DNA of 64,000 nucleotides from an uncultured Alphaproteobacteria bacterium (GCA_944392795.1 CALXXX010000037.1:601-64600); one strand, 5' to 3'. Shown: positions 2,218 to 18,806, counted from the first letter of the stretch. Program-made: numbers and translations. Notes: generated by a model not told the origin, from the sequence alone.

Positions 2218-3180
2218 TCAAGCTTCTTGCTCTAACAAATTTTCCAAAGTCATCAAGCTTTCGGGCAAACCTTCTCCATAACGGACCACATATCCTTCCT
2301 TAGATTGCCATTCCTTTTGCATTGTTTCGGCATTGATAATGTTTCCTTTAACAATGACGACGACAGGGATTATCTTAGACTCAGGCTCCTTTTGAGCCAA
2401 AGAAAAAGCAGCTTGTCCAACTTCAAAAAAAGGAGACGTTTCCATACCACTAGAAGAAAACCAAGTCGGCTTATCGCTCCCTTCAGAAATTGTCTCATCT
2501 GCAATCCATTCCTTATCTGAAAGAAGTATTTTCAAGAGTAAGGCTTTCGTATCCGTTGCCAAAACCAAAGGGATCAAAAAATCATCTAACTGAACATTTC
2601 TAAAAAGTTCAAATCCAAAACGTTCACCTAACTCCTTAATAGAGACGATGAACTCTGGCGATAACTCAGCATTCGGTTGCGGAATAACCGGAGAAGAAAT
2701 TGTCTCCTTAGACTTATCCTGTTCTCTCTCTCCAGATACCGGAGCAGATATTTTCCCACTTAAAAAAGTTCCAACAGCTAACGCTGGTGGACGAATTAGC
2801 TCTTTTTTCTTCAGTGGAATTTTTTGTTTTATTTCTATTTTTTGTCGATACATAAAATGAAATGGAAATTTTAATTTTTTACTCCATTTAATTTTTAATA
2901 CCCAAAACCACCCCAAGGCCCAAACAGGAATAAATAATAAAAAGCATAAAAGAAGAAGAAAATCTGAAAAAGTATCAATAATCCATTGATCATACATAAA
3001 AGCAAAATAAAGCGTTCCCCAATCTTCAAAAGGATTAAGAATATGCACTCCACCTGTCGAAGAATGATAAAAAAGAGGTCCAAATGGGGTATAACCGAAA
3101 ACAAAATCAATCATATACCCAACAACAGGCATATAAATTAAAGTCCAAATAACACCAATTCCAAATGTTCTTGCTTTCAT
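2218..3180 (-). CDS. Hypothetical membrane protein (N-terminal TM helices plus soluble C-terminal domain)
   Basis: 320-aa ORF with two hydrophobic segments in the first 100 aa and a charged C-terminal half. No family recognised. Confidence 0.45.
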   Translation of the reverse strand: MKARTFGIGVIWTLIYMPVVGYMIDFVFGYTPFGPLFYHSSTGGVHILNPFEDWGTLYFAFMYDQWIIDTFSDFLLLLCFLLFIPVWALGWFWVLKIKWSKKLKFPFHFMYRQKIEIKQKIPLKKKELIRPPALAVGTFLSGKISAPVSGEREQDKSKETISSPVIPQPNAELSPEFIVSIKELGERFGFELFRNVQLDDFLIPLVLATDTKALLLKILLSDKEWIADETISEGSDKPTWFSSSGMETSPFFEVGQAAFSLAQKEPESKIIPVVVIVKGNIINAETMQKEWQSKEGYVVRYGEGLPESLMTLENLLEQEA

Positions 3181-3233
3181 TCTTTTCTCCTTTATTGGTC
3201 AGCATAACAAGAGATAAAAGAAAAAACAACCTT

Positions 3234-3267
3234 TAAAAAAAGGAGGATCAATTGATCCTCCTTTTTT
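3234..3267 (-). terminator. Rho-independent terminator (bidirectional hairpin) downstream of the 619-aa gene
   Basis: Perfect palindrome AGGAGGATCAATTGATCCTCCT flanked by an A-run on one side and a T-run on the other, overlapping the stop at 3266-3268. Confidence 0.55.
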
Positions 3268-5125
3268 AACGCGTTTGTTGAAGCGACAAATTTGACACAT
3301 TTTGTTGACCGGGAATTGTAATCTGCATATTTCGAGCTGCTTGAATTCCTTCTCGATTCAATTGCAGCTCTTGTGCCTTCCCAGCCAATGCCTGAGCTTG
3401 AATTAAAAATTGATTAGCCTCTTTTTTAAAGGTTTCTTGATTCCCCAGAGAAGCATTAAAATTTTGAGCTTCTTTTAAGGTCATCTTCAAACGTGACGGT
3501 GCACTAACAGCACCAATATTCCCAACTTTTTCCGAAGAAACAGATAACCCTTCTGTTGATTTTATTTTAGTCGCAGTATCCATCGTTGGAGCTGTTGGCA
3601 CTTGTGGTACAGAAGCTGGTGGAGTAGACGTAGGACCAACACTTGTATTTAAGTGAGTTGTTTCAGGAGTTGCAGGCGCGACTTTATAATTTCCCGTATC
3701 CATAGAGAACGTTGGCTTTACTTCTTCGGGTAACGGAGCTTGTTGCGGAGAAGAAGCTTGTGTATCAATTACTTCATTAGGCATGCGATTCAGTAAACCT
3801 ACCCGATCTTTCAACTCCTGTTTAAACATTGTTCGACCAAAGGTATTAAGGTGATTCCTCTGTAAAATACGAGTCTGCAACTCTTCCATACCTGCTTTTG
3901 TTAAATTACCTTCCTTATCACGGGACAGATTTTCCAACAAACCAGGATCTTCTTTACGAATATTATCGGCTACTTTTTGCATATCATTGCCAGCTTTCAA
4001 AAAATCACTGTATAAAGCTACAACAGCATCACGAGAGGACATTCCTTTCATTGCAAGAATCGTTGCATCAGCTTCTTTTGCTTTCTCCAGCTTATATTTT
4101 GCCAAAGCTTCTCGATTCGCCGCACTTAATTCTAACTGACGCGCCAGAGCTGTTGGACCATAAGCTAAAAGAGCAACGATTAAAGCCATTGCAGCTTCTT
4201 CTGGACTATGTGCATTCAAAACTTGTTCTAAGACACCGATGACTGTTCCTTGTCGATACTCTTTATTAACTTTAGCTTTAATACTTTGTGGTAATATATA
4301 TCCCTTTTCAAAATCGATTTCTTCCGGCTTTTTATTAACCACCTGAGGAATATCAGAACTCGTCTCTTTTTCTTCAATAGGCGCTGGAGGCGGCGGTTCC
4401 ACCGTTTGCTCCATTTGTTGTTTAGAAGAAGGTATTGCTTCAGCTGCTTGTTCTGGTTGTTTATTTTCTGGTTCTGGTTGTTTATTTTCTGACTGTTGCG
4501 CTTCTTGTAATTGCTGCACATAAGCTTCTGCTTCTTCACGTAAACCAGGCAAAGCTTCATTAGCAATAGCATTACGATAATGACGTAATTTGTTAAATCG
4601 TTCAGCAGCCTCATGACGTGCTTGTTGCACTTCCGGCATTTTTTTGACTTGTCGAAGCTGTTCTTCATTAAGCGACAGAACACCTAACTCATCACGCAAA
4701 TGACGCCTATTTTCTTCAAAAACAGCCTTAACATTGTTCTTACTTGAAATACAGCTCAATGATAAACGTGGCATTTCATGCTGCATTTGACGCGTCTCTT
4801 CAGTCGTGACCGTAGCGAATTCAGGATGTTTTATGATTTGCCGCCAAGCATCCTGATATTTATCAAGAGGTGTTTGTTTCTTGCCGACACTAATATCGAC
4901 CGTCGGCTGTCCTTTTTCCAAATAAGAATCATCATTCTGAAAAAGCTTTTTAAAATAATCTCTAGCCATTTGAAAAGGTCTACTGGCATATTTCTCTTGT
5001 TGCTCTGCCGCTTTAGCTTCTTGTTGCTTTAATTGTGTTGCTTCAGAAACGCTATCATCAAAGCCTCCTTTAATTTCTCGATAGGCTTGAGCATTGTAAT
5101 CTTTCGTATAATTGTTTTGCGGCAT
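3266..5125 (-). CDS. Hypothetical hydrophilic protein, 619 aa, coiled-coil and Pro/Thr/Gln-rich, no signal peptide; candidate secreted effector
   Basis: Long ORF with charged low-complexity segments and a tandem EPENKQP EPENKQP repeat (21-nt DNA repeat at 4453-4494). No catalytic motif recognised. Sits next to the T4SS loci. Confidence 0.5.
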   Translation of the reverse strand: MPQNNYTKDYNAQAYREIKGGFDDSVSEATQLKQQEAKAAEQQEKYASRPFQMARDYFKKLFQNDDSYLEKGQPTVDISVGKKQTPLDKYQDAWRQIIKHPEFATVTTEETRQMQHEMPRLSLSCISSKNNVKAVFEENRRHLRDELGVLSLNEEQLRQVKKMPEVQQARHEAAERFNKLRHYRNAIANEALPGLREEAEAYVQQLQEAQQSENKQPEPENKQPEQAAEAIPSSKQQMEQTVEPPPPAPIEEKETSSDIPQVVNKKPEEIDFEKGYILPQSIKAKVNKEYRQGTVIGVLEQVLNAHSPEEAAMALIVALLAYGPTALARQLELSAANREALAKYKLEKAKEADATILAMKGMSSRDAVVALYSDFLKAGNDMQKVADNIRKEDPGLLENLSRDKEGNLTKAGMEELQTRILQRNHLNTFGRTMFKQELKDRVGLLNRMPNEVIDTQASSPQQAPLPEEVKPTFSMDTGNYKVAPATPETTHLNTSVGPTSTPPASVPQVPTAPTMDTATKIKSTEGLSVSSEKVGNIGAVSAPSRLKMTLKEAQNFNASLGNQETFKKEANQFLIQAQALAGKAQELQLNREGIQAARNMQITIPGQQNVSNLSLQQTR

Positions 5126-5195
5126 GATTAACTCCTTTTTTCTCTTATTTTTTAGTGTAGCACAGAGTTTTTATTTTGTCTAGTATTTTGTTAAA

Positions 5196-5843
5196 TTATG
5201 CTTTGAGTTTCCTTAAAAAGGCACCCATTTTTTTATTAAGCTCTATAGCTTCTTTCGGGGCCATTAACCTTTTTCCTTCCGGCGTGATAACCTCTAACGG
5301 AGCAAAAGCAGCGGGATTGGTGATTAACACATTCCATGCTTCCGTTGCATTCTTCTCGGCCATATTCAAATAATTTCGAATAAGCTTTTGTCCGTCTACT
5401 GGAAACTTCTCTGCCTTTAAAGCTGCCGCGAAAGAATTAATAATTTCTTTCTTCGAAGCACGGTACAAATTGATCCTTTTTAATAAGTCTTCACCTTCTT
5501 GACGCACTCTACGATTTTCTTCAATCAAAGCTTCTTCTTCTTTTTCCTGGCATAAATCAATGTATTCTAAAAGCAGTCGACGCCAAAAATCATCTTTTTG
5601 ATAGTACTTATTTAAAGAAACAAGCATTTGACTGACTGTAAAGCTTGTTCCACGAAGTCCCATCAAATAACCTACCATTTGCGCAGTTTCCGTCGCTATA
5701 GTCGGCATAAACGATATACGCATTTTATCATCCAATGCTTCTGGATTCACTGTCAAAGCTGGCGAACCTTTTAATAAGTCTTTATATTTATAAAACTGAC
5801 AGTAAATTTGAAAAATTTTTTGATCTGTAGTTTGTTGGGACAC
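5196..5843 (-). CDS. Hypothetical protein, 215 aa
   Basis: Clean ORF, divergent from the VirB6-like array. No recognisable family. Confidence 0.45.
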   Translation of the reverse strand: MSQQTTDQKIFQIYCQFYKYKDLLKGSPALTVNPEALDDKMRISFMPTIATETAQMVGYLMGLRGTSFTVSQMLVSLNKYYQKDDFWRRLLLEYIDLCQEKEEEALIEENRRVRQEGEDLLKRINLYRASKKEIINSFAAALKAEKFPVDGQKLIRNYLNMAEKNATEAWNVLITNPAAFAPLEVITPEGKRLMAPKEAIELNKKMGAFLRKLKA

Positions 5844-5953: not shown

Positions 5954-7396
5954 ATGATGAGTAAACACTGTTCGCCTTTTTGGATTTTTGCTTTCTTTAC
6001 ATTCTTCCTTTTATCTTCAGTTCCAACCCAAGCTCAAATTTGTTTGTTTGACTGTGATGAAATTACAACTGCACAGGCTCAAGAAATTGCAAAGGAAAAT
6101 GATTGGCGAACAACTTATCAAAATTATATTAAGGATGCCCATTGTACAAATTGTTACAACAATGCAATGAAGATTCAGTATCAAGCGAGATTACAAGAAA
6201 ACCAACGAGCCGAAAATTGTAAAAACAACTGCCAAGGAACTGAAGAAGAAATCAGAACCTGCCAAGAGGTCTGCGATCAAGAACAACGTATTTCTGAAGA
6301 AAACCATCGACAATTATTACAAGAAACTCAAAGAGTCGTAGAAAATGTAGCAGCTGTTAATGAAGCAAATTGTGCAGGTTTGAATGCAATGTATGAAGAG
6401 GTGTCAGCGCGTATGACGGCTTTTGCGGCCTTCAACTGGGCAGCTGCTTTTAGCAGTCAATCAACGGTCGGAGTACCCTTGTTTTCCAAAATTTTAAACA
6501 GCTATAATCAAGATGGTTCCTATGGATGTTGGTTTTGCCCATTATTTGATGTAACTTTCGATATTGTTAACGATCTAGCAACCAACTTTTACGAACAAAT
6601 GAGGACGATATTCCTTAGTGCTTTAATGGTTGGCGGCGTTGCTTGGCTTTGTTGGATTGTATTGCAGTTCTTTTTAGTTGTCCACGGCGCCAACGTTGGT
6701 GAGTTTATGACAACACTTTTAAAAGCATTCTTCAGACTGATGTTTGGAGCGGCTTTATTATGGGCTCCCTCTTATGAAGTATTTGATTTTATTCTTTCTC
6801 CCGTTGTTTCCTTTGCTTCAGGTCTCAGCACAGAGCTTATGGGTACGGCAGGTTTCATAACACCGACAGTCACAACTGTAACAGATATTTATGATAATGG
6901 ATGTGCTGATACAACAGTCTCAACACAACAGAACCAAATGAATTTATGCAGCACGACAGATCCAAATGATAGCCGTTTTGTTTCTAATGGACAACCTAAA
7001 GCTTTATCATCCACAGTTTATGATGGCCTTTCTTGCGTCATAAAAACAGCTAGTTTAAATTTTGTCCTAGGATTAGCTATTGGAGCAACATTCCTGGTCC
7101 ATTCTTTGACAGCAGGTCCTTTAGGATTGCCTCATCTTGGCATGCTGTTAATAGCCCTTTTACAAATTATCGGATATTTAATTTTGTTTATTGTTGTTCC
7201 GTTTAAATTCATTGACATCTTGGTTCGTCTCGGCTTTGTTGCTATTTTATTACCCCTTTATATTCTATTGGCCGTTTTCCCCGCAACAATAGGTTATACA
7301 AAAAAAGCTTGGGATTTACTGATTTCCTGTTTATTTAGTTTAATTGTGTTAAGTATTCTGATTGTTATTTGCCTACGGTTAATCGCAGGAGTATAA
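5954..7396 (+). CDS. VirB6/TrbL-like polytopic inner-membrane protein (paralog 1) with Cys-rich N-terminal periplasmic domain
   Basis: Signal peptide (…SSVPTQAQI), a Cys-rich 150-aa N-domain, then multiple TM helices. Shares the conserved blocks GCWFCPLFD and FKFIDILVRLGFVAILLPLYILLAVFPATIGYTKKAWDLLIS with the two downstream paralogs. AAGAGG RBS upstream. Confidence 0.55.
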   Translation: MMSKHCSPFWIFAFFTFFLLSSVPTQAQICLFDCDEITTAQAQEIAKENDWRTTYQNYIKDAHCTNCYNNAMKIQYQARLQENQRAENCKNNCQGTEEEIRTCQEVCDQEQRISEENHRQLLQETQRVVENVAAVNEANCAGLNAMYEEVSARMTAFAAFNWAAAFSSQSTVGVPLFSKILNSYNQDGSYGCWFCPLFDVTFDIVNDLATNFYEQMRTIFLSALMVGGVAWLCWIVLQFFLVVHGANVGEFMTTLLKAFFRLMFGAALLWAPSYEVFDFILSPVVSFASGLSTELMGTAGFITPTVTTVTDIYDNGCADTTVSTQQNQMNLCSTTDPNDSRFVSNGQPKALSSTVYDGLSCVIKTASLNFVLGLAIGATFLVHSLTAGPLGLPHLGMLLIALLQIIGYLILFIVVPFKFIDILVRLGFVAILLPLYILLAVFPATIGYTKKAWDLLISCLFSLIVLSILIVICLRLIAGV

Positions 7397-7399
7397 GAG

Positions 7400-8452
7400 G
7401 TGAAAATTATGTTCAAAAATAAAATTAAAGTCTTTACTTTAACGCTCTCTATTTTTTTGATATCAATAGCTCCTGTTTTTGCACAAAGCACACAATCTCA
7501 GACAGCTTCAAATAATCGATTGCAACAAATTCTTAACTTTTTAATGGCCGATCGCGTAAAAGAAGCTGCTGATTTAATGAATTTTACAACTTCATCTATT
7601 TTTATCACTGTCGGAGGACTGATTATTAGTATCGCCCTTCTGTTTATGTCCTCTTCTATCGGCGAATCTTTAGGTGCTGCACCGACGAGTGGAGGCAGCA
7701 AAACCGGCTTTATGTTAGGAGCTGCCGCAGGTGGAGCCATCTTAAAAGGTGGTTCAAAATTAAGTGGAGCAACCTCCGACTGGTTTAAAAGTCGAAAAAA
7801 TAATACGGGAACGAGTACTACGGCAGGAGGAAAAGGTTCTGTCGGTGGACAATCAAGTAAAGGGGCCGGAGCTCCGAATCAATATAAATCTAATTCAAAC
7901 ACTGGAGCAGAAGGAAATAATCAAGGAGGAAGTGGAGGAACAGATACCGCTACTGCGAACACAGGCAATTTTTCTGTTAATCCGCAAGCCTCTTCGGATT
8001 CTAATTTTTCTGTTACAAATGCTCAAATTTCCGGTCTTTCATCACAGAACAAATCAAATATAGGCTCAACCCCTGGAACAAACAAGAATTCATCATCCCC
8101 TGCGACAACAGAGGCACAAAAGACTTCTCCAGCTTCTGCAGATAGTGCAATGAATTCAGCATCGACAAATACAGGAGACAGCAATAAAACAGAAGGACAA
8201 AATACATCAAATACCTCTTCAACAATTCAATCATCCCCTGTCTCATCCATGCCAAAACCAAGCAGCATGTCTGCTCCAAAAGGAATCGATGCACCAACAT
8301 CTATGGCGGCTCCTAGTGGAATGGCGGCTCCTAGTGGAATGGCAGCCCCTGCCGGAATGGCGGCTCCTTCCAGCCCTCGTTCCTCAGAAGAGATTTCTTC
8401 TAAAATAAAAGAAACTGCTCAAAAAGAAACAGGAGAAATTACAGGGAAATAA
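7400..8452 (+). CDS. Secreted or membrane-anchored Gly/Ser/Thr/Ala-rich protein, 350 aa (possible pilin-like N-terminus plus low-complexity tail)
   Basis: Signal peptide ending VFAQ, one hydrophobic helix (SIFITVGGLIISIALLFMSS), then about 250 aa of G/S/T/N low complexity ending in tandem MAAPSGMAAPSGMAAPAGMAAPS repeats (DNA repeat 8297-8370). It starts 4 nt after the upstream VirB6-like stop. Confidence 0.45.
   Translation: MKIMFKNKIKVFTLTLSIFLISIAPVFAQSTQSQTASNNRLQQILNFLMADRVKEAADLMNFTTSSIFITVGGLIISIALLFMSSSIGESLGAAPTSGGSKTGFMLGAAAGGAILKGGSKLSGATSDWFKSRKNNTGTSTTAGGKGSVGGQSSKGAGAPNQYKSNSNTGAEGNNQGGSGGTDTATANTGNFSVNPQASSDSNFSVTNAQISGLSSQNKSNIGSTPGTNKNSSSPATTEAQKTSPASADSAMNSASTNTGDSNKTEGQNTSNTSSTIQSSPVSSMPKPSSMSAPKGIDAPTSMAAPSGMAAPSGMAAPAGMAAPSSPRSSEEISSKIKETAQKETGEITGK
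8297..8370 (+). repeat. Tandem 21-nt direct repeats (about 3.5 copies) encoding MAAPSG units
   Basis: aatggcggctcctagtgg aatggcggctcctagtgg aatggcagcccctgccgg aatggcggctcc seen directly. Confidence 0.6.
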
Positions 8453-8459
8453 GCCACAA

Positions 8460-9716
8460 ATGAAAAAGGTTTTTTCATATCTAAAAAATAAACCTTTCTG
8501 CCTCTTGATAATGGCGGCTGTCTTATTTTTATCCTCTTGCGGCATGGATGTTGAAGTTGATATCGTCAAAGCTCAGGAGGATATGAATTCGACAAAAAGC
8601 TGTTGGACTTGTCAATTGTTTACTATTGTTTTCAACACAGGAGCATCTATTGCTACAAATGCTTTTGATAGTATAAAAAATTTAGCTTGGGGACTTTTAG
8701 CGGTTGGATTAGTCATCTATCTTTGTCTACGAACACTTTCTTTATTCTTAAGCATGCGGCTTCCTGATCTGCCGAATTATTGGATTTCTATCACAACCAA
8801 GCTAGGAAAAGGAGGCCTTGTTTCCATTTTTTTATTAAGTTCCAGTCATATGTGGGAACTGATTAATACAATTATAGCACCGATTATTACGGTTTTTGTT
8901 CGTCTCTCATTTATGATTTTAAATTTAAATTTTCCAACTCGTGTTGCTACATCAACAACGGTTGGCTCTACTTTTATAAGCGGACCAGGCTTACCTGCTG
9001 AGATCGGAGCACAATTAGAAGATTTGGTCTATCGTTCAACTGTTGCCTTAAATATTGGACGAGCTTTAGGCCTTCGAATGATGATGCTTTCTGATTTTAC
9101 CGGCTTCATTATCGGTTTAATCATTATTGGAATTTTCTTTATGCTTTTACTTTTCTTCCCAATGTATTTAATTGATGCATTGGTGCGAATTATATTTGTT
9201 ATTATCCTTTTTCCTATCTTATTGGTCGCTTGGGTTTTCTCGGTCACAGAAAAATACTTTAAAACAGCTTGGAACATGCTGATCGGCGGATTAGCTCAAT
9301 TATTTATTTCCTGTGTTTTTATTGCTTTACTTGTCTCGACAATAGAAGCCTTTACTCAAATGCGTGGTTATAACATTATTCTTAATCCAACCTATCAAAA
9401 CACGAACCCTGATGTTTTACGTGAAATGTCCCGAATGTCCATCTCGGCCTTATCCTTTATCGTGATGGCTTTCTATTTATATAACTTATCAAAGCACCTA
9501 ACTGAAATTTCAGGCTTTTTAACAAACTCATCTCAAACTTCCATGGTCGGGGATTTTACCCGTCGGCTCAAACAATTAGCAATTGCTGCTGTTGCAGCAA
9601 CTATAGCTATTGTTGCCGCTTCTGTCGGTGCTGCACCAGTAACGGCTGTTATGAAAAAGAAAGCTTTGGATGAAGCGCAAAAAGCAGCTAAAAGTGATAA
9701 AAATAGCGGAGGGTAA
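8460..9716 (+). CDS. VirB6/TrbL-like membrane protein (paralog 2), lipoprotein-type signal
   Basis: N-terminal LFLSSCG lipobox-like signal, then polytopic. Conserved CWTCQLF and LIDALVRIIFVIILFPILLVAWVFSVTEKYFKTAWNMLIGG blocks shared with paralogs 1 and 3. Confidence 0.55.
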   Translation: MKKVFSYLKNKPFCLLIMAAVLFLSSCGMDVEVDIVKAQEDMNSTKSCWTCQLFTIVFNTGASIATNAFDSIKNLAWGLLAVGLVIYLCLRTLSLFLSMRLPDLPNYWISITTKLGKGGLVSIFLLSSSHMWELINTIIAPIITVFVRLSFMILNLNFPTRVATSTTVGSTFISGPGLPAEIGAQLEDLVYRSTVALNIGRALGLRMMMLSDFTGFIIGLIIIGIFFMLLLFFPMYLIDALVRIIFVIILFPILLVAWVFSVTEKYFKTAWNMLIGGLAQLFISCVFIALLVSTIEAFTQMRGYNIILNPTYQNTNPDVLREMSRMSISALSFIVMAFYLYNLSKHLTEISGFLTNSSQTSMVGDFTRRLKQLAIAAVAATIAIVAASVGAAPVTAVMKKKALDEAQKAAKSDKNSGG

Positions 9717-9718
9717 AA

Positions 9719-12238
9719 ATGTTTAAGCATATTTCAATCACTCTTCTGCTTATTTTAGTATTAGCTTTAATCTATTTTTTCCCAGGAGCAGATTACATCC
9801 CTTATATTTGGATTGTTGCTTTACCACTCATTATTATCCTTCTAGGACTTGGGATTTATAAAACATACACCTTAAAAAAAGGAAAATATATTTTATTTTT
9901 AAGCTTGTTTATTTCTTCATTTCTTCTAGCCGCTCCTTCAATTGCACAAGCTCAAACATATCGAATTTCACAAGAACGTCTTCAAGAAGCTCAGTTAATC
10001 ATAGAAGAAGTAGAGCGCATTCCTCTTAATGACAGAACACGAGAACAACAAGAAAAATTAGAAAAAGCTCGAGAGGATTATACACAAGCAATGAAAGAGC
10101 GCTTAGGTCGTGGCTCAAAAGCGTGCCCGACACCTAAACAACTTTTGTTGGAATATCAAGAAGATTGTTGGACTTGTGATATTGTTTATTTGATCGTTGA
10201 AAGTATGGATAAAGTCATTACAACTTTCTATAAACAATTAGAAGAACAGCATCTTCCTTTAATATTATTAGCTATTGGCGGCTTATTTTGGCTTGTTTTT
10301 CGAACACTCCGCCTTTTCCTAACATGGGGAATGGGTGATATTGGTTCATATTTTACAGATGTTTTAAAACGCATTTTATTGTTGATTTTTTTATCTGCCA
10401 TTTTATGGACACCTTATAAAGATGTATTAAACATTTTTATTACGCCTATTTTTACTTTTTCTGCGGGTCTAACTCAATCCTTGAGCTCTATTGAAGCATC
10501 AATAGAAACACCACAAAGTACGCCTCAGGTTAATGTTGAAATCTATCGTTCTGTTTTAGGAACACAACCACCTCAGCCGACTTATTGTCAAAACTTAAAT
10601 GCAGAATCAGCCTCTCCAACTGATGAACGCGTATCTCGTGTCTTACAATATCAAGCCAGCATTCAAGACAGAGCTCTACCAACATCAGTGCGAGATTCTC
10701 TCCTCTGTATCGTTCAAAGTATTTATCAAATCACTGTTCCTCCAACTGTCGCCGGACAATATTTAATGTGTATGTCTCAAACCCAAGGAGCGATTTCTTT
10801 CCCAACACGCTTAACCCCCATTATCAAATTACCAGACTTTTCTGTTTGGTTTGCTTCTTGGTTCATTATAGCTGCTTTTTTCCTATTATCTGCCGTTTTC
10901 CCATTCTTCTTAGTCGATTCTTTTTTCAGAATAGGTATTGTTCTGTTATTAATGCCATTCTTTATCGTAACCGCGGCTTTTCCTTCTACACGTGCTTATA
11001 CTAAAAGAGCTTTTGATGTCCTCATTTCGTCTCTTATTAATTTCTTTATGATTTCTTTGATTTTAGTCTTACTGATACAAATGTTCTATACATTAATGGG
11101 ACCGACGGCAACGACATTAGCAGAACTTCTAGCAAAACAAGATTACTTAGGTCTAAGTAATACTTTCGGATGGGCTGGGGGCGGTCGTATGATTTTTGCA
11201 AGTATTGCTATGCTTTTAATCGGTTTTTACCTACTTTCTACTACAGCAAGAATGATTCAAATGATGACGGGTATTGGTTTATCTCAAGGTGGAGGTGTCG
11301 CAGCTTTATTTGCCCCAGTTGGATTGGCTGGAGCAGGTCTGAGTTTAACTAAAGAAATTTATGATGAACCTTGGGAACCATCTAAACATAAAGCCTATCT
11401 ATTAAGAATGGATGCTCAAAGGCGTGGCTATACAGATGCAAAAGGCGTTCGGCATGGCCTCAGCAAATATCATACATTAGAAGCGCGTTCTCGCGGGATG
11501 CGTCGTTTTATCCCTAAAGCTGCCGATAAAGCTGGAAATAAAGTAGAAAAAACCTCTAATACAAGCGCTTTATTAACTGAAAAAGGAATAAAACTGACAG
11601 GAAAAGAAATTAATCAAGGAACTAAGTTCATTTTCTTTAACAGCGGACATTTCTTAGGGCAATTTGGAATGAAAATGATAGGAACAACTGCTTCTGCCTG
11701 GTATCTTGCACCGTTTACTCTTGCTGCTGCAACTGTTGCTTTTACCGGAGCAGGCATCATGTATGCTCTGGGCGGAACCTTTATTATGATAAATAATGTT
11801 GCTAACTATGTCATTCGAAAAACTGCGAAAAAAACGATTCAAACAACCGGAAAAGTAACTTCTTATGCGATAAAAAAATCTGCACGAGCAATTGCATATA
11901 ATAAATATTTAACAAAAACAATGGCTTTAGTTCAAAAGCCTGTTCAATTTACAACTTCTTTAATTGCTATTCCTATCACCTCTATTTATACACGTACATT
12001 AGAACAAGATCCAACTCGTAGAGCTCAACAAACTGCTTCCGATATAAAACAACGGGCGAATCGAATTGCAAGGCCTGAAGATACACATACTTGGCGTGAT
12101 CTTTTCGATGAAATTCGTGAAAATGCACATCAAACGCGTTCAAATTTGGATGACAACATGCGAGCTAAAAACAAACATTCTAAAGATTTTGTCAAGAGTA
12201 ATTGGCGCTTTATTCGCCGAACTGGACGCTTCTTCTAA
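9719..12238 (+). CDS. VirB6/TrbL-like membrane protein (paralog 3), 839 aa with long C-terminal extension
   Basis: Start overlaps the upstream stop (TAAAAATG context). Conserved CWTCDIVY and FFLVDSFFRIGIVLLLMPFFIVTAAFPSTRAYTKRAFDVLIS blocks. Extra C-terminal TM helices and a basic tail, as seen in extended VirB6 paralogs of Rickettsiales-type systems. Confidence 0.55.
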   Translation: MFKHISITLLLILVLALIYFFPGADYIPYIWIVALPLIIILLGLGIYKTYTLKKGKYILFLSLFISSFLLAAPSIAQAQTYRISQERLQEAQLIIEEVERIPLNDRTREQQEKLEKAREDYTQAMKERLGRGSKACPTPKQLLLEYQEDCWTCDIVYLIVESMDKVITTFYKQLEEQHLPLILLAIGGLFWLVFRTLRLFLTWGMGDIGSYFTDVLKRILLLIFLSAILWTPYKDVLNIFITPIFTFSAGLTQSLSSIEASIETPQSTPQVNVEIYRSVLGTQPPQPTYCQNLNAESASPTDERVSRVLQYQASIQDRALPTSVRDSLLCIVQSIYQITVPPTVAGQYLMCMSQTQGAISFPTRLTPIIKLPDFSVWFASWFIIAAFFLLSAVFPFFLVDSFFRIGIVLLLMPFFIVTAAFPSTRAYTKRAFDVLISSLINFFMISLILVLLIQMFYTLMGPTATTLAELLAKQDYLGLSNTFGWAGGGRMIFASIAMLLIGFYLLSTTARMIQMMTGIGLSQGGGVAALFAPVGLAGAGLSLTKEIYDEPWEPSKHKAYLLRMDAQRRGYTDAKGVRHGLSKYHTLEARSRGMRRFIPKAADKAGNKVEKTSNTSALLTEKGIKLTGKEINQGTKFIFFNSGHFLGQFGMKMIGTTASAWYLAPFTLAAATVAFTGAGIMYALGGTFIMINNVANYVIRKTAKKTIQTTGKVTSYAIKKSARAIAYNKYLTKTMALVQKPVQFTTSLIAIPITSIYTRTLEQDPTRRAQQTASDIKQRANRIARPEDTHTWRDLFDEIRENAHQTRSNLDDNMRAKNKHSKDFVKSNWRFIRRTGRFF

Positions 12239-12350: not shown

Positions 12351-13292
12351 ATGGAAGAAATTATATTCCCAAATCAAATTCGGATGATACGACGGACACG
12401 TGGCAAAACAATGAAAGAAATTGCCGGTATCTTAGGGGTCAGTTTATCCGCTATTAGTAAAATAGAAAAAGGTTATCGCCGTATTGATGAAGAGCAATTA
12501 GATAAAATTTCATCTTTTTTGGACTGTCCTAAGGAAAGTATTTTTGTTTATGAAAAAACTTCACAACCTGAAGTTTTGCAAGCTTGGCAAAAAGAACAAG
12601 ACCGCCGGAAACAAATTAACGAAAAAAGTGGTTTAAAAACATTGGGCGCTGGACTGAGATATATTCGCGGAGAAAAGATGCTCACATTGCAAGATGTAGC
12701 CAAAGGAGCCGGCTTAACGCTTTCGGTTTATCATCGCATTGAAATGGGACAGCGAGAGGTAACAGAAGAACAATTTAAAAAAATTGCACATGCTCTTGGT
12801 TTTACAACAGAAACATTACAGCTTCAAATCTATGAATTAGATATGGCCGGAACTTTGCAAGAGTTCAAAAAAACAGGAAAACCAGGTATTTTTCATCCTA
12901 AAGGTGGGTATAATGATCTTCCTCTCAAGTCTTTAAGTATTAATAAAAAAATACTGGTTCATCAGGCGACTGTAAATAATGATACGTTTGTTCTCAATGA
13001 TCAAACATTTGAAATGGATGCTTCTCTTCCTTTTGCTCAAGAATTAACCGGAATAAAAGTGAATACTTCTTTATCTTTCGGTAGTTTTTCTGCCACATAT
13101 GTTTTGGCTACTCATGCCCCATTAAAAGAAGGAGAACCTGTCTTATTTCAACAAAAAGAGAATATTTTCTTACCCGGAACTTTTTCTCAACAAAACAATA
13201 AAACTGTATTTAAGGCCTCAGATGGAACAGAGCAGATCTTAACAGAAAATGATTTAAAAAAGCTTTCTAAAATAGTTGCTCTTTATTTTTAA
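12351..13292 (+). CDS. Tandem helix-turn-helix (XRE-family) transcriptional regulator with C-terminal domain
   Basis: Two HTH_3-like segments: TMKEIAGILGVSLSAISKIEKGYRRID and LTLQDVAKGAGLTLSVYHRIEMGQREVT. AAAAGGAG RBS 8 nt upstream of the ATG. Confidence 0.7.
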   Translation: MEEIIFPNQIRMIRRTRGKTMKEIAGILGVSLSAISKIEKGYRRIDEEQLDKISSFLDCPKESIFVYEKTSQPEVLQAWQKEQDRRKQINEKSGLKTLGAGLRYIRGEKMLTLQDVAKGAGLTLSVYHRIEMGQREVTEEQFKKIAHALGFTTETLQLQIYELDMAGTLQEFKKTGKPGIFHPKGGYNDLPLKSLSINKKILVHQATVNNDTFVLNDQTFEMDASLPFAQELTGIKVNTSLSFGSFSATYVLATHAPLKEGEPVLFQQKENIFLPGTFSQQNNKTVFKASDGTEQILTENDLKKLSKIVALYF

Positions 13293-13304
13293 CCAGAATA
13301 AAGG

Positions 13305-14162
13305 ATGAAAAAAATGGCGCTTGATGTCCTTTCTTGGAAAAAAGAATTTTTAAAACGAAAAAAGTCCTCAAATGAGGAGGCTGAATCAACAGCTCAACGG
13401 CTTATTAATATTTATCGTCAGTTATACACATTAGGACCAGAAGCCAATCAACGATATAATGCCATGCTGTTAAAAGATGCAACATTAGAGGTCCAAATTG
13501 CCCTTAAAAATATACCAGGTGGAGAAGAAATCCGCGATTATTTGAATTTCCTAAAGCATCAAGAATTGTCCGAAGAAGAAGAAAGTCAAGCGCTCCATGA
13601 AGGAAATGAGGCTTTACAAATAAAAAATGATCTACCAGCTCCAGAAGAAATGTCTCCATTATGGGAAACTTATGGAATGCCGACTAGAGGGGGAATATCA
13701 GAACCTGCTTCTATAACCTATACGAAATCTGATGCCGAAAAAATAACAGAACAAATTATCTCTTTGGAAGCTGTTGTGCATGAAACTCAGAAACAAAATA
13801 TTTTATCTATGATAGAAACCCAAAATGAACGCATTTTAGAAATATTAAGATATATGGTCATTGACTCTGATGTAGATAAAATGCATGAAAATTTGAAAAA
13901 CAGTATTGAAAAGGTAAAAGAAGTTCAAAAAGAAAATACTGAAAAAATTACAGATGCCTTAAAAAAAGAACCTTTACTAACTGAAATCAAAGAAAAATTA
14001 ACGGCGCTTTTCGATAAACAAGAAGCTGAAGCTATTGCAGAAAACGAAGCAAAAGAAGCTGCACGTAGAAAAGAAAACAAGCCAGTCGATAAATTTCGAA
14101 AGATGAAACAACCTACAAAATTTTCTGTTCATTTAATTGAAGATGAAAAGGCTGATTTTTAA
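13305..14162 (+). CDS. Hypothetical acidic coiled-coil protein, 285 aa
   Basis: Clean ORF 12 nt after the regulator. Glu/Lys-rich helical sequence. No signal peptide. Confidence 0.5.
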   Translation: MKKMALDVLSWKKEFLKRKKSSNEEAESTAQRLINIYRQLYTLGPEANQRYNAMLLKDATLEVQIALKNIPGGEEIRDYLNFLKHQELSEEEESQALHEGNEALQIKNDLPAPEEMSPLWETYGMPTRGGISEPASITYTKSDAEKITEQIISLEAVVHETQKQNILSMIETQNERILEILRYMVIDSDVDKMHENLKNSIEKVKEVQKENTEKITDALKKEPLLTEIKEKLTALFDKQEAEAIAENEAKEAARRKENKPVDKFRKMKQPTKFSVHLIEDEKADF

Positions 14163-14221
14163 AGAAACATTAACTATCTTTCTTTATACTTGCTAAAAGG
14201 AAAATAGATAAGGATAAAATA

Positions 14222-15712
14222 ATGAATATTGATCCAACGTTGCAGCCACTTATAGAAGCTCTGATTGCTTATCAAGAAAATCAAGAAACTTTAATGCCTT
14301 TAGTTGAAAAAGCTCAAGATATTTTAGGCCCTGACTGGACAAGCTTTATTCAAACATCGTTAGATACGATGACAGGCATCGATCAGCCGACAAAAGAGAT
14401 GCTGAAGAAAAAAGCAGATCACGCTATTCATTATTATGGCGCATTAGCTGCTTGGGAAGAAGCTTATCAATATATCAATGCGCCTCAATCTGTCAATAAT
14501 ATGCAGCTGATTGAACGTATTCCAACTTTAGAATACTGGCTTTCCTTGTTCGGAGACGAAGGAACAAAAGTTATTAACCAATTAAAGGATTTACTGAATG
14601 ATGTCGATCAAAATGAAGCGACAGAACCTGTAGAAGCTATCTCTGAAATTGTAAATGAAGAACAGAAAGATAATCAATCTTTCGTTCATATCATGGAACA
14701 AACTGATGAAAAAAAGGATGAAGAAAATTCCCTTCCAGCCAGTGAACATACTTCAGAGCCTCAAGAAATAATCGAACCAGAAACTGTTACGCCACTTGTA
14801 GATGAGCTTTCTTCAACGCAAGAAAATACTTCAGAAGACCAAAAAGATCAAAGATTAGAAGATAATGTCTCTGTAGATACTCAGCAACTACAGAATGAAA
14901 TTGCATTTGAGAAAAATGAAAAAGAAACACCAGATATAGAAAATGGGCTCTCTGAGGAAATTCACTTAAATGAAATGCCAGCCCTTCCAGATGTCCCTCT
15001 AGATCAAGTTATTGAAGAAAACACGGACAAACAAGAAGCATTTTCACAACAATCCATAGACGAAAATATCTCTTCAGAGGAAACAACTACAGAATCAGAA
15101 GTAATTGAAATGATGTCTCCAAAAGAAATTCCGGAGACGCCAGAAATTTTAGAAAATGATCCTAATTTACAAATTCCTAAAACGAAAAATTGGGAAATAT
15201 CTAATTTTATGAAGCTTAAAAATTTATATGAAGATGCAACTAACTGGATTAGCGCTCATTGCGTTCGATTAAATAATATGGATAAAACAGAATATCCTTA
15301 TTATGGTTTCATCGTCGATCTCATGAAAGAGTTAAAAGACAATATACAAAACTTATTAGAAAATCAACTGTTAGAAGAAGTGATTGATACTGAAGTCCCA
15401 GGCGGACGCGAAGGTATGCAAAGCCTTCTAGACGCTTTAGAAAAAGAATTAGAGGATTTGCCAGAAAATTTAAAACCAATTGAAGAAAATACAAATATCG
15501 ATCCTCATAAAATCTTAGGAGAACTGGATACCAGTTCTGAAAAAGAATATATCGGTCCGGCACCCGATGGCTTCGAATTAATTGAAGATCCTTATGAAGT
15601 CTCGCCGGAAAAAATTATCGAAGATTATAAAAAAACAGAAGAAGAAACAAAAGTCGATTTTGATTCACTAAATGTAACCTCTTCTTCAGGTCAAGAACAG
15701 AAAAAGGAATAG
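14222..15712 (+). CDS. Hypothetical highly acidic (Glu/Asp-rich) protein, 496 aa; candidate T4SS substrate or chaperone-bound effector
   Basis: Long ORF with an extremely acidic low-complexity middle region and no TM or signal peptide. Its stop overlaps the next gene's start. Confidence 0.5.
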   Translation: MNIDPTLQPLIEALIAYQENQETLMPLVEKAQDILGPDWTSFIQTSLDTMTGIDQPTKEMLKKKADHAIHYYGALAAWEEAYQYINAPQSVNNMQLIERIPTLEYWLSLFGDEGTKVINQLKDLLNDVDQNEATEPVEAISEIVNEEQKDNQSFVHIMEQTDEKKDEENSLPASEHTSEPQEIIEPETVTPLVDELSSTQENTSEDQKDQRLEDNVSVDTQQLQNEIAFEKNEKETPDIENGLSEEIHLNEMPALPDVPLDQVIEENTDKQEAFSQQSIDENISSEETTTESEVIEMMSPKEIPETPEILENDPNLQIPKTKNWEISNFMKLKNLYEDATNWISAHCVRLNNMDKTEYPYYGFIVDLMKELKDNIQNLLENQLLEEVIDTEVPGGREGMQSLLDALEKELEDLPENLKPIEENTNIDPHKILGELDTSSEKEYIGPAPDGFELIEDPYEVSPEKIIEDYKKTEEETKVDFDSLNVTSSSGQEQKKE

Positions 15713-17804: not shown

Positions 17805-18794
17805 CTATGTAATCGCTGTCACAGCACGAATATTGCCGTTACGATTAATCTGAACGACCCGCAGCTTATCCCTCATTTCTCGCAGCGTTTTATCTCTATC
17901 TATTGTTGGTGTTGTTCTCATAATACGAGCAACAAATGCTTTATACGCCTCTTCAGGATTCTCCGCATGAATCGTAGCAAAACAGTTTTCATGACCAGAG
18001 CCCATTAATTCCCAAATAGCACTGGCATTTGATGTTGAAATCTCTCCTCCGATAATCGCATCAGGAGTAAAACGAACGACTAAGTCAATAACACGTGGAT
18101 AAGTAAATCCATTCGTTTGATCTGTACGAGGTAAAACAATATGCACACGATTCTTATGTGGAACAATAAGTTCCCGCGTATCCTCAATCGTTAAAATACG
18201 TTTATGCTCATCCACTAATTTAATCATATTATTCAAAAATGTCGTTTTACCTGTTGCAGTTCCACCGCTGATAAGAATATGCTCTCCTTTACGTATTGAA
18301 AGCAACAAGCGATCATAAGGATCATCAGGATCTTCTACATTTGCTAACTTACTTAATGGACGTAGACGTTCCCCTTGCTCCAAATTAAAGTCTTTAAACT
18401 CTATTCCTACATCTTCTTTATAAACACGAATAGCAAGAGCAACACCACCCGTTAAATCATCATTATCATACATGACGTTACGACCACTAATACCCGTAAA
18501 ACGATGACCTCCGGGAAGTGTAGCATAAACAACCGGAGTTCCTTCTGTCGGTTCAAAAGAATAATCATAACTGTTTGCTATAATATAAAGAATATTATTT
18601 AAATATTCTCGTGTTAGCTTAGGATCAATCTGTTCAACCCACGGATATGCTCTTTTACCTCGCAAACGAAGCCAAATAGAACCTGGATGATCTACTGCAA
18701 CCTCTTCTACATTATCTTGTGTATACCAATAGGATAAAGGTCGTAATGCCGACTCCAAAACTTTATAGGTTTCGGAAATGGATAACTCTGGCAT
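17805..18794 (-). CDS. virB11: VirB11-family type IV secretion ATPase
   Basis: 329 aa. Walker A ISGGTATGKTTFLN and the conserved VirB11/CagAlpha-like fold signature (…RVIDLVVRFTPDAIIGGEI…). It is the last gene of the virB8-virB11 operon. Confidence 0.85.
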   Translation of the reverse strand: MPELSISETYKVLESALRPLSYWYTQDNVEEVAVDHPGSIWLRLRGKRAYPWVEQIDPKLTREYLNNILYIIANSYDYSFEPTEGTPVVYATLPGGHRFTGISGRNVMYDNDDLTGGVALAIRVYKEDVGIEFKDFNLEQGERLRPLSKLANVEDPDDPYDRLLLSIRKGEHILISGGTATGKTTFLNNMIKLVDEHKRILTIEDTRELIVPHKNRVHIVLPRTDQTNGFTYPRVIDLVVRFTPDAIIGGEISTSNASAIWELMGSGHENCFATIHAENPEEAYKAFVARIMRTTPTIDRDKTLREMRDKLRVVQINRNGNIRAVTAIT

Positions 18795-18806
18795 TTGCGG
18801 CTCCTT

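What the first reader, a model, noticed from the sequence alone, without database searches (positions are those of the whole stretch)
5954..12238. Array of three VirB6/TrbL-like paralogs at a separate locus, sharing a conserved CW(T/F)C motif and a (F/V)-P-(A/S)-T…K(K/R)A(W/F) helix
The three polytopic membrane proteins (480, 418 and 839 aa) are tandem, translationally coupled, and share two sequence blocks: GCWFCPLFD / SCWTCQLF / DCWTCDIVY, and …LLAVFPATIGYTKKAWDLLIS / LVAWVFSVTEKYFKTAWNMLIG / VTAAFPSTRAYTKRAFDVLIS. Paralog 1 has an extra Cys-rich periplasmic N-domain. Paralog 2 has a lipoprotein-type signal. Paralog 3 has a long C-terminal extension. Multiple enlarged tandem virB6 genes are a hallmark of Rickettsiales rvh systems, so this supports the rvh-like reading of the T4SS above. 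Unlike rvh, no virB3/virB4 precedes them here.
Basis: partly seen in the sequence, partly recalled or inferred. Interest (0 to 1): 0.6.

Follow-up and report, generated by a model that had tools for sequence, protein, structure and literature searches.

The report
Triplicated, divergent VirB6 secretion-channel genes
An uncultured gut or rumen alphaproteobacterium carries three very divergent copies of VirB6, the inner-membrane platform protein of a type IV secretion machine; one copy is split into two genes, and all carry an invariant cysteine motif not seen in five ordinary plasmid VirB6 proteins, which makes this an unannotated variant of a known component rather than a new kind of system.

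Summary
The operon holds four genes, not three. A 347-aa gene (7409-8452) lies between paralogs 1 and 2. It is the detached C-terminal module of paralog 1 and has its own signal peptide.

No paralog passes the Pfam TrbL/VirB6 threshold. Homology to VirB6 is nevertheless well supported:
- Profile-profile comparison with five plasmid VirB6 proteins gives 97% probability, E 2e-11.
- AlphaFold models of paralogs 2 and 1 have R388 TrwI/VirB6 as their top solved-structure matches.
- 30 of 67 family members hit TrbL weakly.

The CWxC motif is specific to a large unnamed subfamily of about 1,480 cluster representatives and is absent from the five canonical VirB6 proteins checked.

These are the only VirB6 candidates in the window. 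They lie 5.6 kb from a virB8-virB11 cluster, in an island whose gene order is conserved in distant relatives.

The Rickettsiales (rvh) parallel is partial. Shared: tandem VirB6 copies, one lipoprotein paralog, a duplicated VirB8. Not shared: a VirB5-like protein is present, and no virB3/virB4 lies upstream.

Verdict: a new variant of a known kind, of moderate interest.

The parts
5954..7396 (+). Paralog 1, N-terminal part (480 aa): signal peptide, Cys-rich helical N-domain, CWFC, VirB6 core. It ends just after the VirB6 signature helix.
   Evidence: ORF. BLASTP to p3 E 1e-39. AF2 model pLDDT 80.4, with TrwI/VirB6 as the top 5 PDB matches. Family HMM E 6e-113.
6041..6274 (+). Cys-rich periplasmic N-domain of paralog 1 (aa 30-107): four Cys pairs (CX3C, CX2C, CX3C, CX3C) on a confidently predicted helical region. 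The last two pairs lie near the H65-91 / H97-138 junction.
   Evidence: Sequence. pLDDT 81-93 and helices H39-47, H51-60, H65-91, H97-138. The Cys pairs are conserved in 11 short p1-type cluster representatives. Disulfide pairing is inferred.
6527..6538 (+). CWFC motif of paralog 1 (aa 192-195).
   Evidence: Both Cys invariant in A3 and A5.
7247..7330 (+). VirB6 signature of paralog 1 (LPLYILLAVFPATIGYTKKAWDLLIS; invariant Pro434, Trp453).
   Evidence: hhalign aligns this family block with the canonical 'PIFI..MF.STR.F..W'. The essential Trp is described in PMC2653234.
7409..8452 (+). Detached C-terminal module of paralog 1 (347 aa): its own signal peptide, the last membrane helix of the VirB6 core, and a long low-complexity S/T/G/N/A/P tail with MAAPSG repeats.
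   Evidence: Same frame as p1, one TAA apart, RBS GAGGTG. An HMM of the equivalent segment of 97 unsplit relatives hits it at E 6.9e-7 (matched region nt 7520-7894), while p1 itself has no match. The first paralog is a single gene at the same position in L005, L009, L011, L018, L019 and L020.
8460..9716 (+). Paralog 2 (418 aa): lipoprotein-type VirB6. It has no N-domain, no second Cys pair and a short tail.
   Evidence: ORF. AF2 pLDDT 82.8, pTM 0.77. Foldseek top 9 matches are TrwI/VirB6: E 4.9e-4, prob 1.0; top five chains TM 0.62-0.66 normalised to target.
8529..8540 (+). Lipobox L-S-S-C (aa 24-27) of paralog 2.
   Evidence: Sequence. A lipobox-like motif is present in 16 of 16 p2-type relatives, and in L004 (LAAC) and L005 (LTGC).
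8601..8612 (+). CWTC motif of paralog 2 (aa 48-51), at the N-terminal end of the 49-residue helix alpha-1.
   Evidence: Invariant C48 and C51. Helix H49-97 in the model.
9207..9290 (+). VirB6 signature of paralog 2 (Pro252, Trp271).
9719..12238 (+). Paralog 3 (839 aa): three N-terminal hydrophobic segments, a coiled-coil region, CWTC, the VirB6 core, and a long C-terminal extension.
   Evidence: ORF. Weak PF04610 hit at aa 373-466. Hydropathy. Orthologs in L004 (752 aa) and L005 (946 aa).
10166..10177 (+). CWTC motif of paralog 3 (aa 150-153).
   Evidence: Invariant C150 and C153.
10949..11032 (+). VirB6 signature of paralog 3, with Phe432 in place of the conserved Trp.
   Evidence: Phe is seen in 8 of 27 p3-type relatives scored.
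11396..12235 (+). C-terminal extension of paralog 3 (about aa 560-839), ending in a basic stretch.
   Evidence: No Pfam match. Aligns with the L004 and L005 orthologs.
17805..36038 (-). The partner T4SS gene cluster. It holds VirB11, a giant VirB10, VirB9, VirB8, a second VirB8 paralog, a soluble 546-aa protein in the usual VirB6 slot, a 251-aa protein, a VirB5-like 823-aa protein, and 249- and 268-aa proteins. It has no polytopic VirB6 of its own.
   Evidence: Pfam results. VirB8 paralogy E 9e-14. The 546-aa protein is soluble and lacks CWxC. The family HMM finds no other VirB6-like ORF in the window.

Best explanation
The operon 5954-12238 encodes the VirB6 component of a chromosomal P-type (VirB-like) type IV secretion system. 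The virB8-virB11 and virB5-like genes of that system lie 5.6-24 kb downstream on the opposite strand.

VirB6 is present as three anciently diverged paralogs, each with its own specialisation:
- p1 has a disulfide-type Cys-rich periplasmic N-domain and has been split into two genes. The C-terminal piece re-acquired a signal peptide.
- p2 is a lipoprotein.
- p3 has extra N-terminal membrane segments and a C-terminal extension of about 280 aa.

By analogy with R388 TrwI/VirB6, they would sit in the inner membrane as the (there pentameric) base of the stalk that carries VirB5 and recruits pilin. With three conserved co-operonic paralogs, the assembly is probably mixed or made of alternative forms.

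All members of this subfamily are exported N-terminus-out by a Sec or lipoprotein signal. All carry an invariant CWxC at the periplasmic N-terminal end of helix alpha-1. This most likely forms a structural or assembly-related disulfide, or a thiol or metal site.

Shown: paralogy, VirB6 homology at profile and fold level, the gene split, conserved gene order next to T4SS genes, and motif invariance.
Inferred: membrane topology, oligomeric state, co-assembly of the paralogs, and the role of the cysteines.
For: - Paralogy.
- Family size and motif invariance: 1,480 cluster representatives at E<=1e-3. C150, C153 and P413 are invariant. 153 of 164 held members have CWxC.
- VirB6 homology by sequence: 30 of 67 members hit PF04610, best E 1.6e-6. 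hhalign to five plasmid VirB6 proteins gives 97.3%, E 2.3e-11, with the signature Trp aligned. The family HMM hits 3 of the 5 canonical VirB6 proteins at E<=4.4e-4 and no other window ORF.
- VirB6 homology by fold: the p2 model (pLDDT 82.8) has R388 TrwI/VirB6 as its top 9 PDB matches, prob 1.0; the top five chains have TM 0.62-0.66 normalised to target. The p1 model has it as its top 5.
- Need for it: the adjacent T4SS cluster has VirB5-like, VirB8 (two copies), VirB9, VirB10 and VirB11 genes but no polytopic VirB6.
- Conserved gene order, from a ~215-aa divergent gene through three or more tandem paralogs: L004, L005, L009, L011, L018, L019, L020; the dual-HTH gene and four unknown genes follow in L001, L004, L009, L011 and L020; a VirB11-type (T2SSE) gene ends the block in L001 and L020.
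- Split gene.
- Functional model for VirB6: PMC11294453.
- Precedents for co-transcribed multiple VirB6 paralogs and for lipoprotein VirB6: PMC7648143 and PMC4197220.
Against: - None of the three proteins reaches Pfam's curated TrbL score, and NCBIfam has no fitting model.
- No virB2, virB3, virB4 or virD4 is in the 64-kb window, so a complete machine is not demonstrated.
- p3 has Phe where the Trp described as essential sits.
- The p1 fold match is weak (E 0.2).
- Oligomerisation, co-assembly and cysteine chemistry are untested.
- Expression is not shown, and the promoter and terminator scans were no better than shuffled sequence.
Confidence: 0.8

Rival explanations
1. These are true orthologs by descent of the Rickettsiales rvh RvhB6 paralogs, and the whole system is an rvh T4SS.
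For: - Tandem, enlarged, highly divergent VirB6 paralogs in an alphaproteobacterium.
- One paralog is a lipoprotein, as in Wolbachia Wbm0794 and Anaplasma VirB6-3 and VirB6-4.
- VirB8 is duplicated, as in rvh (PMC2653234).
- A split virB6 also occurs in R. bellii.
Against: - rvh lacks VirB5. Here an 823-aa protein passes the Pfam T4SS/VirB5-type model (28.5 bits against a cut-off of 24.7).
- The rvh array is virB3-virB4-virB6xN. Here a divergent unknown gene lies upstream.
- Rickettsia VirB6 proteins retrieve PF04610, whereas these do not at threshold.
- The window's VirB11 has its best plasmid match (40% identity) on a Microvirga plasmid.
- The taxon is known only as 'Alphaproteobacteria bacterium'.
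- No Rickettsiales sequence could be aligned here.
Confidence: 0.2
2. Only one paralog (p1 or p2, which keep the Trp) is the working VirB6. The others have taken on new roles, for example as surface-exposed, adhesin-like or effector-presenting proteins that use the VirB6 core as a membrane anchor.
For: - p3 has Phe in place of the essential Trp and a long extension.
- The detached p1 fragment has a 200-aa low-complexity tail.
- Anaplasma VirB6-3 and VirB6-4 are reported as surface exposed.
Against: - All three paralog types are retained in the same order in relatives down to 23-31% identity.
- All keep the invariant CWxC and Pro.
- 18 of 27 p3-type relatives scored do have Trp.
Confidence: 0.2
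3. They are not T4SS components but an unrelated polytopic membrane family (a permease or similar) that happens to lie near T4SS genes.
For: No curated family threshold is met. No PDB match by sequence.
Against: Profile-profile comparison, fold search and weak Pfam hits all point to VirB6/TrbL, and the next-best folds have TM below 0.2. The sporadic NCBIfam hits include TrbL, VirB6 and TraJ models alongside a few unrelated ones, each in only 1 of 67 members. The link to T4SS genes is conserved.
Confidence: 0.03

Closest known systems
Canonical VirB6/TrbL (A. tumefaciens VirB6/AvhB6, R388 TrwI, pKM101 TraD; Pfam PF04610)
   Same: The helical fold is shared (TrwI is the top PDB match). The signature 'P..I...(F/V)(P/S).T..(Y/F)..(A/G)W' aligns with 'PIFI..MF.STR.F..W' and includes the essential Trp. 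Both are hydrophobic inner-membrane proteins encoded with virB8-11. The presumed role is the same: stalk base and pilin or substrate platform.
   Different: - The window proteins score below Pfam's threshold.
- They have cleavable or lipoprotein signal peptides and N-terminal extensions.
- An invariant CWxC sits N-terminal of the aligned core; none of the 5 canonical proteins checked has it.
- p1 and p3 carry a larger periplasmic insert with a second Cys pair and, in p1, a beta-hairpin.
- There are three paralogs instead of one, and one of them is split into two genes.
- They are encoded apart from virB3, virB4 and virB5.
Rickettsiales rvh VirB6 paralogs (Rickettsia RvhB6a-e; Anaplasma and Ehrlichia VirB6-1 to VirB6-4; Wolbachia Wbm0793-0796)
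   Same: Both are chromosomal, tandem, co-directional arrays of highly divergent, enlarged VirB6 proteins with flanking extensions. Some paralogs are predicted lipoproteins. VirB8 is duplicated. The T4SS genes are spread over more than one operon. A split virB6 is known in R. bellii.
   Different: There are 3 paralogs rather than 4-5. No virB3-virB4 lies upstream. VirB5-like proteins are present. The array is only 5.6 kb from virB11 rather than at a distant islet. The proteins are not recognised by PF04610 at threshold. Whether RvhB6 proteins have CWxC could not be checked here.
VirB7-VirB9 disulfide of A. tumefaciens; twin-CX3C / CHCH helical hairpins (small Tim proteins)
   Same: Periplasmic cysteines are used to staple T4SS parts (VirB7-VirB9). 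Paired CX3C motifs on two neighbouring helices resemble twin-CX3C hairpins. This comparison rests on my own knowledge of those families.
   Different: No homology is claimed. The cysteine pairings here are inferred from spacing and predicted helices only.

Membership tests
VirB6/TrbL (Pfam PF04610) | Scores at or above the curated Pfam gathering threshold (25.9 bits) | tested here: not met
   p3 scores 16.8 bits, E 0.0062. p1 and p2 have no hit. Among 67 relatives, 30 hit at E<=0.01, best 1.6e-6.
VirB6/TrbL (superfamily level) | Profile-profile homology to bona fide VirB6 proteins across the core | tested here: met
   hhalign of A3 against 5 plasmid VirB6 proteins: probability 97.3%, E 2.3e-11, 262 columns. 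The family HMM hits 3 of the 5 at E<=4.4e-4. The five references were chosen by annotation and position in virB operons; their Pfam membership was not re-checked.
VirB6/TrbL (superfamily level) | VirB6 fold, as in R388 TrwI (PDB 7o3v, 8rt9, 8rtd) | tested here: met
   p2 model: the top 9 Foldseek PDB matches are all TrwI/VirB6, E 4.9e-4, prob 1.0; the top five chains have TM 0.62-0.66 by target length, and the next fold has TM below 0.2. p1 model: the top 5 are TrwI/VirB6 but weaker, E 0.2.
VirB6/TrbL | Conserved signature region with the invariant, essential Trp | tested here: met
   Met in p1 (W453) and p2 (W271). p3 has F432. The importance of the Trp is from PMC2653234.
VirB6/TrbL | Polytopic inner-membrane protein | tested here: met
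   Several hydrophobic helices by Kyte-Doolittle analysis and long helices in the models. No dedicated topology predictor was available, so orientation is inferred from the signal peptides.
VirB6/TrbL | Encoded with other T4SS mating-pair-formation genes | tested here: met
   virB11 lies 5.6 kb away, followed by VirB10, VirB9, two VirB8 genes and a VirB5-like gene. The same arrangement is seen in L001 and L020. virB4 is not in the window.
Rickettsiales vir homolog (rvh) T4SS | Several tandem, enlarged, divergent virB6 genes | tested here: met
   Three paralogs of 418-839 aa with 23-27% identity.
Rickettsiales vir homolog (rvh) T4SS | virB6 array directly preceded by virB3-virB4 | tested here: not met
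   Upstream is a divergently transcribed 215-aa gene with no Pfam match. No VirB3 or VirB4 domain is found anywhere in the window.
Rickettsiales vir homolog (rvh) T4SS | Absence of VirB5 | tested here: not met
   The 823-aa protein (32010-34481) passes PF07996 'T4SS' (VirB5/TrbJ-type): 28.5 bits against a cut-off of 24.7.
Rickettsiales vir homolog (rvh) T4SS | Duplicated VirB8, VirB9 or VirB4 | tested here: inconclusive
   VirB8 is duplicated (206 aa vs 254 aa, E 9e-14). Only one VirB9 is in the window. VirB4 was not seen.
Rickettsiales vir homolog (rvh) T4SS | Phylogenetic grouping with Rickettsiales VirB6 and host taxon in Rickettsiales | not testable with these tools

The most novel reading that the evidence does not exclude
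The CWxC-VirB6 proteins define a distinct T4SS architecture. Three dedicated paralogs, one delivered as two polypeptides, would assemble into a fixed heteromeric stalk base. Their invariant CWxC motifs sit at the N-terminal ends of the alpha-1 helices and would come together as a ring of thiols. That ring could be redox-active, metal-binding or disulfide-forming, and could gate or staple assembly with the Cys-rich p1 domain or the VirB5-like proteins. This would be a thiol-controlled checkpoint for which I found no description in a full-text search for VirB6 with CXXC.
Probability: 0.15. Interest if true: 0.7.

Novelty: new variant of a known kind. Interest (0 to 1): 0.5.

Why it matters
VirB6 is the least conserved and least understood core subunit of type IV secretion systems. 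Why Rickettsiales keep 4-5 copies of it is an open question.

This locus shows the same solution in uncultured gut or rumen Alphaproteobacteria: several specialised VirB6 paralogs, including a lipoprotein one. Here it comes with cleaner sequence handles, namely an invariant CWxC, a Cys-rich N-domain, and a natural split that marks a domain boundary and a periplasmic entry point.

The subfamily is large, with about 1,480 representatives at 50% identity. The 10 relatives looked up carried no functional name (one is labelled 'hypothetical protein'), and no Pfam or NCBIfam model reaches its threshold for the window proteins. T4SS surveys based on those profiles may therefore score such genomes as lacking VirB6. 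A dedicated profile would fix that annotation gap. It would also give a second, independent set of proteins for studying mixed VirB6 assemblies.

Tried and rejected
- PDB sequence search with the three-paralog profile returned only chance hits to pyruvate decarboxylase, E 0.45.
- tblastn of the p3 core against 72,556 plasmids found nothing.
- The word-indexed protein search with A2 found only 7 hits, all close p2 orthologs. The exhaustive search was needed to see the family.
- P0001 is not on record in the contig index.
- Ten relatives looked up carry no functional name (nine none, one 'hypothetical protein').
- NCBIfam gave only sporadic single-member hits, among them TrbL, VirB6 and TraJ models.
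- A first small HMM (10 sequences) for the C-terminal module hit L004_358 but not the window's 350-aa ORF. A 97-sequence HMM did hit it.
- I considered that the in-frame TAA between p1 and the 350-aa ORF was a sequencing error, a recent pseudogene or a recoded stop. I rejected this for three reasons. The split recurs in other assemblies (seen directly in L001, L003 and L004; L002 starts within the second gene), down to 30% identity. It also appears in 11 short p1-type cluster representatives. The second gene has its own RBS, ATG and signal peptide.
- I considered the 350-aa ORF as a VirB2-like pilin. I did not pursue it after the C-terminal-module match.
- I considered the 546-aa protein in the usual VirB6 slot (29609-31249) as the real VirB6. 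I rejected it because it is soluble, has a signal peptide and coiled-coil-like sequence, and is not hit by the family HMM.
- The weak SLATT_5 hit at the p3 N-terminus (19.5 bits against a cut-off of 29.5) is best read as transmembrane-composition noise.
- Promoter and terminator scans were no better than shuffled sequence.
- Full-text searches for VirB6 with CXXC, and for tandem VirB6 in Holosporales-like lineages, found nothing relevant.

Full report
**What is in the sequence**

The + strand between 5954 and 12238 carries four closely packed genes, not three:
- p1, 5954-7396, 480 aa.
- A 347-aa gene, ATG 7409 to 8452 (ORF listing starts it at GTG 7400).
- p2, 8460-9716, 418 aa.
- p3, 9719-12238, 839 aa.

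The spacers are 12, 7 and 2 nt. GAGGTG precedes ATG 7409 and GGAGGG precedes the p3 start.

Paralogy is clear from BLASTP: p1-p3 E 1e-39 (27% identity over 395 aa), p2-p3 E 1e-11, p1-p2 E 3e-13.

The three side observations also hold:
- p1 has four Cys pairs in aa 30-107.
- p2 has a lipobox, L24-S-S-C27.
- p3 extends about 280 aa beyond the shared core.

**The overlooked fourth gene**

p1 stops right after the conserved signature helix. The next gene is in the same frame, one TAA away. It begins with a typical signal peptide (MFKNKIKVFTLTLSIFLISIAPVFA/Q), followed by one hydrophobic helix and a long low-complexity tail.

In more distant relatives the first paralog is a single longer gene: L005 839 aa, L009 854, L011 566, L018 936, L019 780, L020 493.

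I built an HMM from the segment that follows the signature helix in 97 unsplit family members and searched all 233 window ORFs with it.
- It hits p3 (E 6.6e-12), p2 (1.3e-10) and the 350-aa ORF (6.9e-7, aa 42-166).
- It does not hit p1.
- Noise begins at E 0.5.

The positional ortholog in L004 scores 6.9e-15.

The split into roughly 480 and 350 aa recurs in other assemblies: directly in L001, L003 and L004, the last at about 30% identity, while L002 begins within the second gene. It also appears in 11 short p1-type cluster representatives, all of which have the Cys-rich N-domain. So it is an old, maintained gene fission, not an assembly error or a fresh pseudogene. The detached piece needs its own signal peptide. 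This implies that the point after the signature helix faces the periplasm (inference).

**Family identity**

Curated profiles barely see these proteins. Only p3 hits Pfam TrbL/VirB6, below threshold (E 0.0062, 16.8 bits against 25.9). NCBIfam has nothing useful. A PDB sequence search gave only chance hits, and tblastn against plasmids found nothing.

An exhaustive profile search shows a large, unnamed family: 1,480 cluster representatives at E<=1e-3 and 188 at E<=1e-30. Ten clusters looked up carry no functional name. Four lines of evidence tie this family to VirB6:
- 30 of 67 members hit PF04610 at E<=0.01, best 1.6e-6. The few other families each matched only 1-3 members.
- hhalign of the 67-member alignment against five VirB6 proteins from annotated virB operons on Agrobacterium, Pandoraea, IncX4, Vibrio and Acinetobacter plasmids gives 97.3% probability, E 2.3e-11, over 262 columns.
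- The family HMM, run against all window ORFs plus those references, finds the three paralogs, the split fragment and three of the five canonical VirB6 proteins (E 3e-6 to 4e-4). It finds no other window ORF.
- An AlphaFold2 model of p2 (pLDDT 82.8, pTM 0.77) has R388 TrwI/VirB6 chains as its nine best PDB matches (E 4.9e-4, prob 1.0; top five chains TM 0.62-0.66 normalised to target). The next folds, ABC exporters, have TM below 0.2. The p1 model (pLDDT 80.4) also ranks TrwI/VirB6 first to fifth, though weakly (E 0.2).

**What the two motifs mean**

Block 2 aligns column for column with the canonical 'PIFI..MF.STR.F..W'. It is the general VirB6 signature, including the Trp described as invariant and essential (PMC2653234). 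It is not a peculiarity of these paralogs. p1 and p2 keep the Trp. p3 has Phe, as do 8 of 27 p3-type relatives scored.

CWxC is the true subfamily mark:
- Both Cys are invariant in 67 of 67 aligned members, and the Trp is nearly invariant.
- 153 of 164 held sequences have CWxC, 8 have CxxC with another residue in place of Trp, and 3 are fragments.
- None of the five canonical VirB6 proteins has it.
- It lies just N-terminal of where the canonical proteins begin to align. In the p2 model it sits at the N-terminal end of the 49-residue helix alpha-1.

A second Cys pair in the periplasmic insert (C290 and C330 in p3) occurs in about 62% of members. It is present in p1 and p3 and absent in p2.

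**Context**

The minus-strand cluster 17805-36038 encodes the following:
- VirB11.
- A 2,443-aa VirB10 with beta-flower repeats.
- VirB9.
- VirB8 and a second VirB8 paralog (E 9e-14).
- A soluble 546-aa protein in the usual VirB6 slot.
- A VirB5-type 823-aa protein that passes PF07996.
- Two smaller secreted proteins.

This cluster has no polytopic VirB6, so the three paralogs supply the missing component. No VirB2, VirB3, VirB4 or VirD4 is in the window.

The neighbourhood is conserved in relatives at 23-31% identity. A ~215-aa divergent gene followed by three or more tandem paralogs is seen in L004, L005, L009, L011, L018, L019 and L020. A dual-HTH regulator and four unknown genes follow the paralogs in L001, L004, L009, L011 and L020. 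A VirB11-type (T2SSE) gene closes the block in L001 and L020. 'Separate locus' therefore means a separate operon within one island.

The organisms are known only as uncultured Alphaproteobacteria MAGs, including one from yak rumen. The surrounding genes are chromosomal housekeeping genes.

**Mechanism (inferred)**

In R388, VirB6 forms the 5-fold base of the stalk in the inner membrane. It carries VirB5 on top and offers a pilin-recruitment site on its alpha-1/alpha-2 transmembrane helices (PMC11294453).

I propose that the three paralogs play this role here, probably as mixed or alternative assemblies. All three types are co-operonic and retained in the same order across deep divergence.

Precedents exist in Rickettsiales. 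Four VirB6 paralogs are co-transcribed in Anaplasma, and some of them are lipoproteins (PMC7648143). Wolbachia Wbm0794 is a predicted lipoprotein VirB6 (PMC4197220).

The signal peptides put the N-terminal extensions and CWxC in the periplasm. There a CxxC at a helix N-terminus could form an intrahelical disulfide, a redox-active pair, a metal site or an intermolecular link. I cannot tell these apart with the tools available.

**Comparison and novelty**

Membership in the VirB6/TrbL superfamily is supported at profile and fold level, but not at the curated Pfam threshold.

The rvh label is not justified. A VirB5-like protein is present and no virB3-virB4 lies upstream. Rickettsia VirB6 proteins are recognised by PF04610, while these are not at threshold. 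The functional parallel to rvh is still real.

I rate this as a new variant of a known kind: an unannotated CWxC subfamily of VirB6 with a conserved three-paralog, split-gene architecture. Interest is moderate (0.5).

Noticed in passing
window 18807-26138 (-): A giant 2,443-aa VirB10. The TrbI domain is at aa 2094-2287. Upstream of it are about 17 '5-fold beta-flower' repeats, 4-fold beta-flower repeats, DUF3659 and RHS repeats. This is very unusual for VirB10. The ortholog in L001 is 2,455 aa.
   Followed up: partly
window 39505-42741 (-): A single 1,078-aa ORF that combines an LptF/LptG permease domain (aa 6-355) with LptD_N and LptD (aa 411-1014). It looks like a fusion of inner- and outer-membrane LPS-transport components.
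   Followed up: no
window 12351-17762 (+): A block of five genes between the VirB6 operon and virB11, conserved in order in L001, L004, L009, L011 and L020. It holds a double-HTH_3 regulator (313 aa), an acidic 285-aa protein, an acidic 496-aa protein, a 486-aa protein with a signal peptide, and a 198-aa single-TM protein. None of the last four has a Pfam match. They may be system-specific T4SS parts or regulators.
   Followed up: partly
window 2218-5843 (-): Three genes upstream, transcribed divergently, with conserved gene order: 215 aa (soluble), 619 aa (Q/E/P-rich) and 320 aa (N-terminal TM segments). None has a Pfam match. The ~215-aa gene sits next to the VirB6 array in every relative examined.
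   Followed up: partly
window 29609-31249 (-) and L007:14044-15330: A soluble, signal-peptide-bearing 546-aa protein occupies the usual VirB6 position between the VirB5-like and VirB8 genes. The closest plasmid T4SS by VirB11 (Microvirga pMVF16-3, 40% identity) has a soluble 428-aa hypothetical protein at the same place.
   Followed up: partly
window 32010-34481 (-): An 823-aa VirB5-type protein (PF07996 at aa 516-657). Its N-terminal ~500 aa are a long Ser/Gly/Trp-rich repeat region with motifs such as SxWxGS and LSNW.
   Followed up: no
window 28979-29599 (-): A second VirB8 paralog (206 aa) next to VirB8 (254 aa): BLASTP E 9e-14, 22% identity.
   Followed up: yes
window 8460 vs 8511: The database protein P0001 (401 aa, source NCBI) is 100% identical to p2 but starts at Met18. 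That shorter start removes the positively charged n-region of the lipoprotein signal (MKKVFSYLKNK), so the longer start at 8460 fits a lipoprotein signal better.
   Followed up: partly
window ~8300-8390 (+): The tail of the 347-aa gene carries a short tandem peptide repeat (MAAPSG/MAAPAG, four copies) within a 200-aa S/T/N/G-rich low-complexity region.
   Followed up: no
L019:3814-14164 and L009:1-497: Some relatives have more than three tandem genes in the array. L019 has five consecutive large ORFs of 780, 788, 445, 833 and 596 aa. L009 has an extra TrbL-weak 692-aa gene nearby. Copy number therefore varies across the lineage.
   Followed up: no
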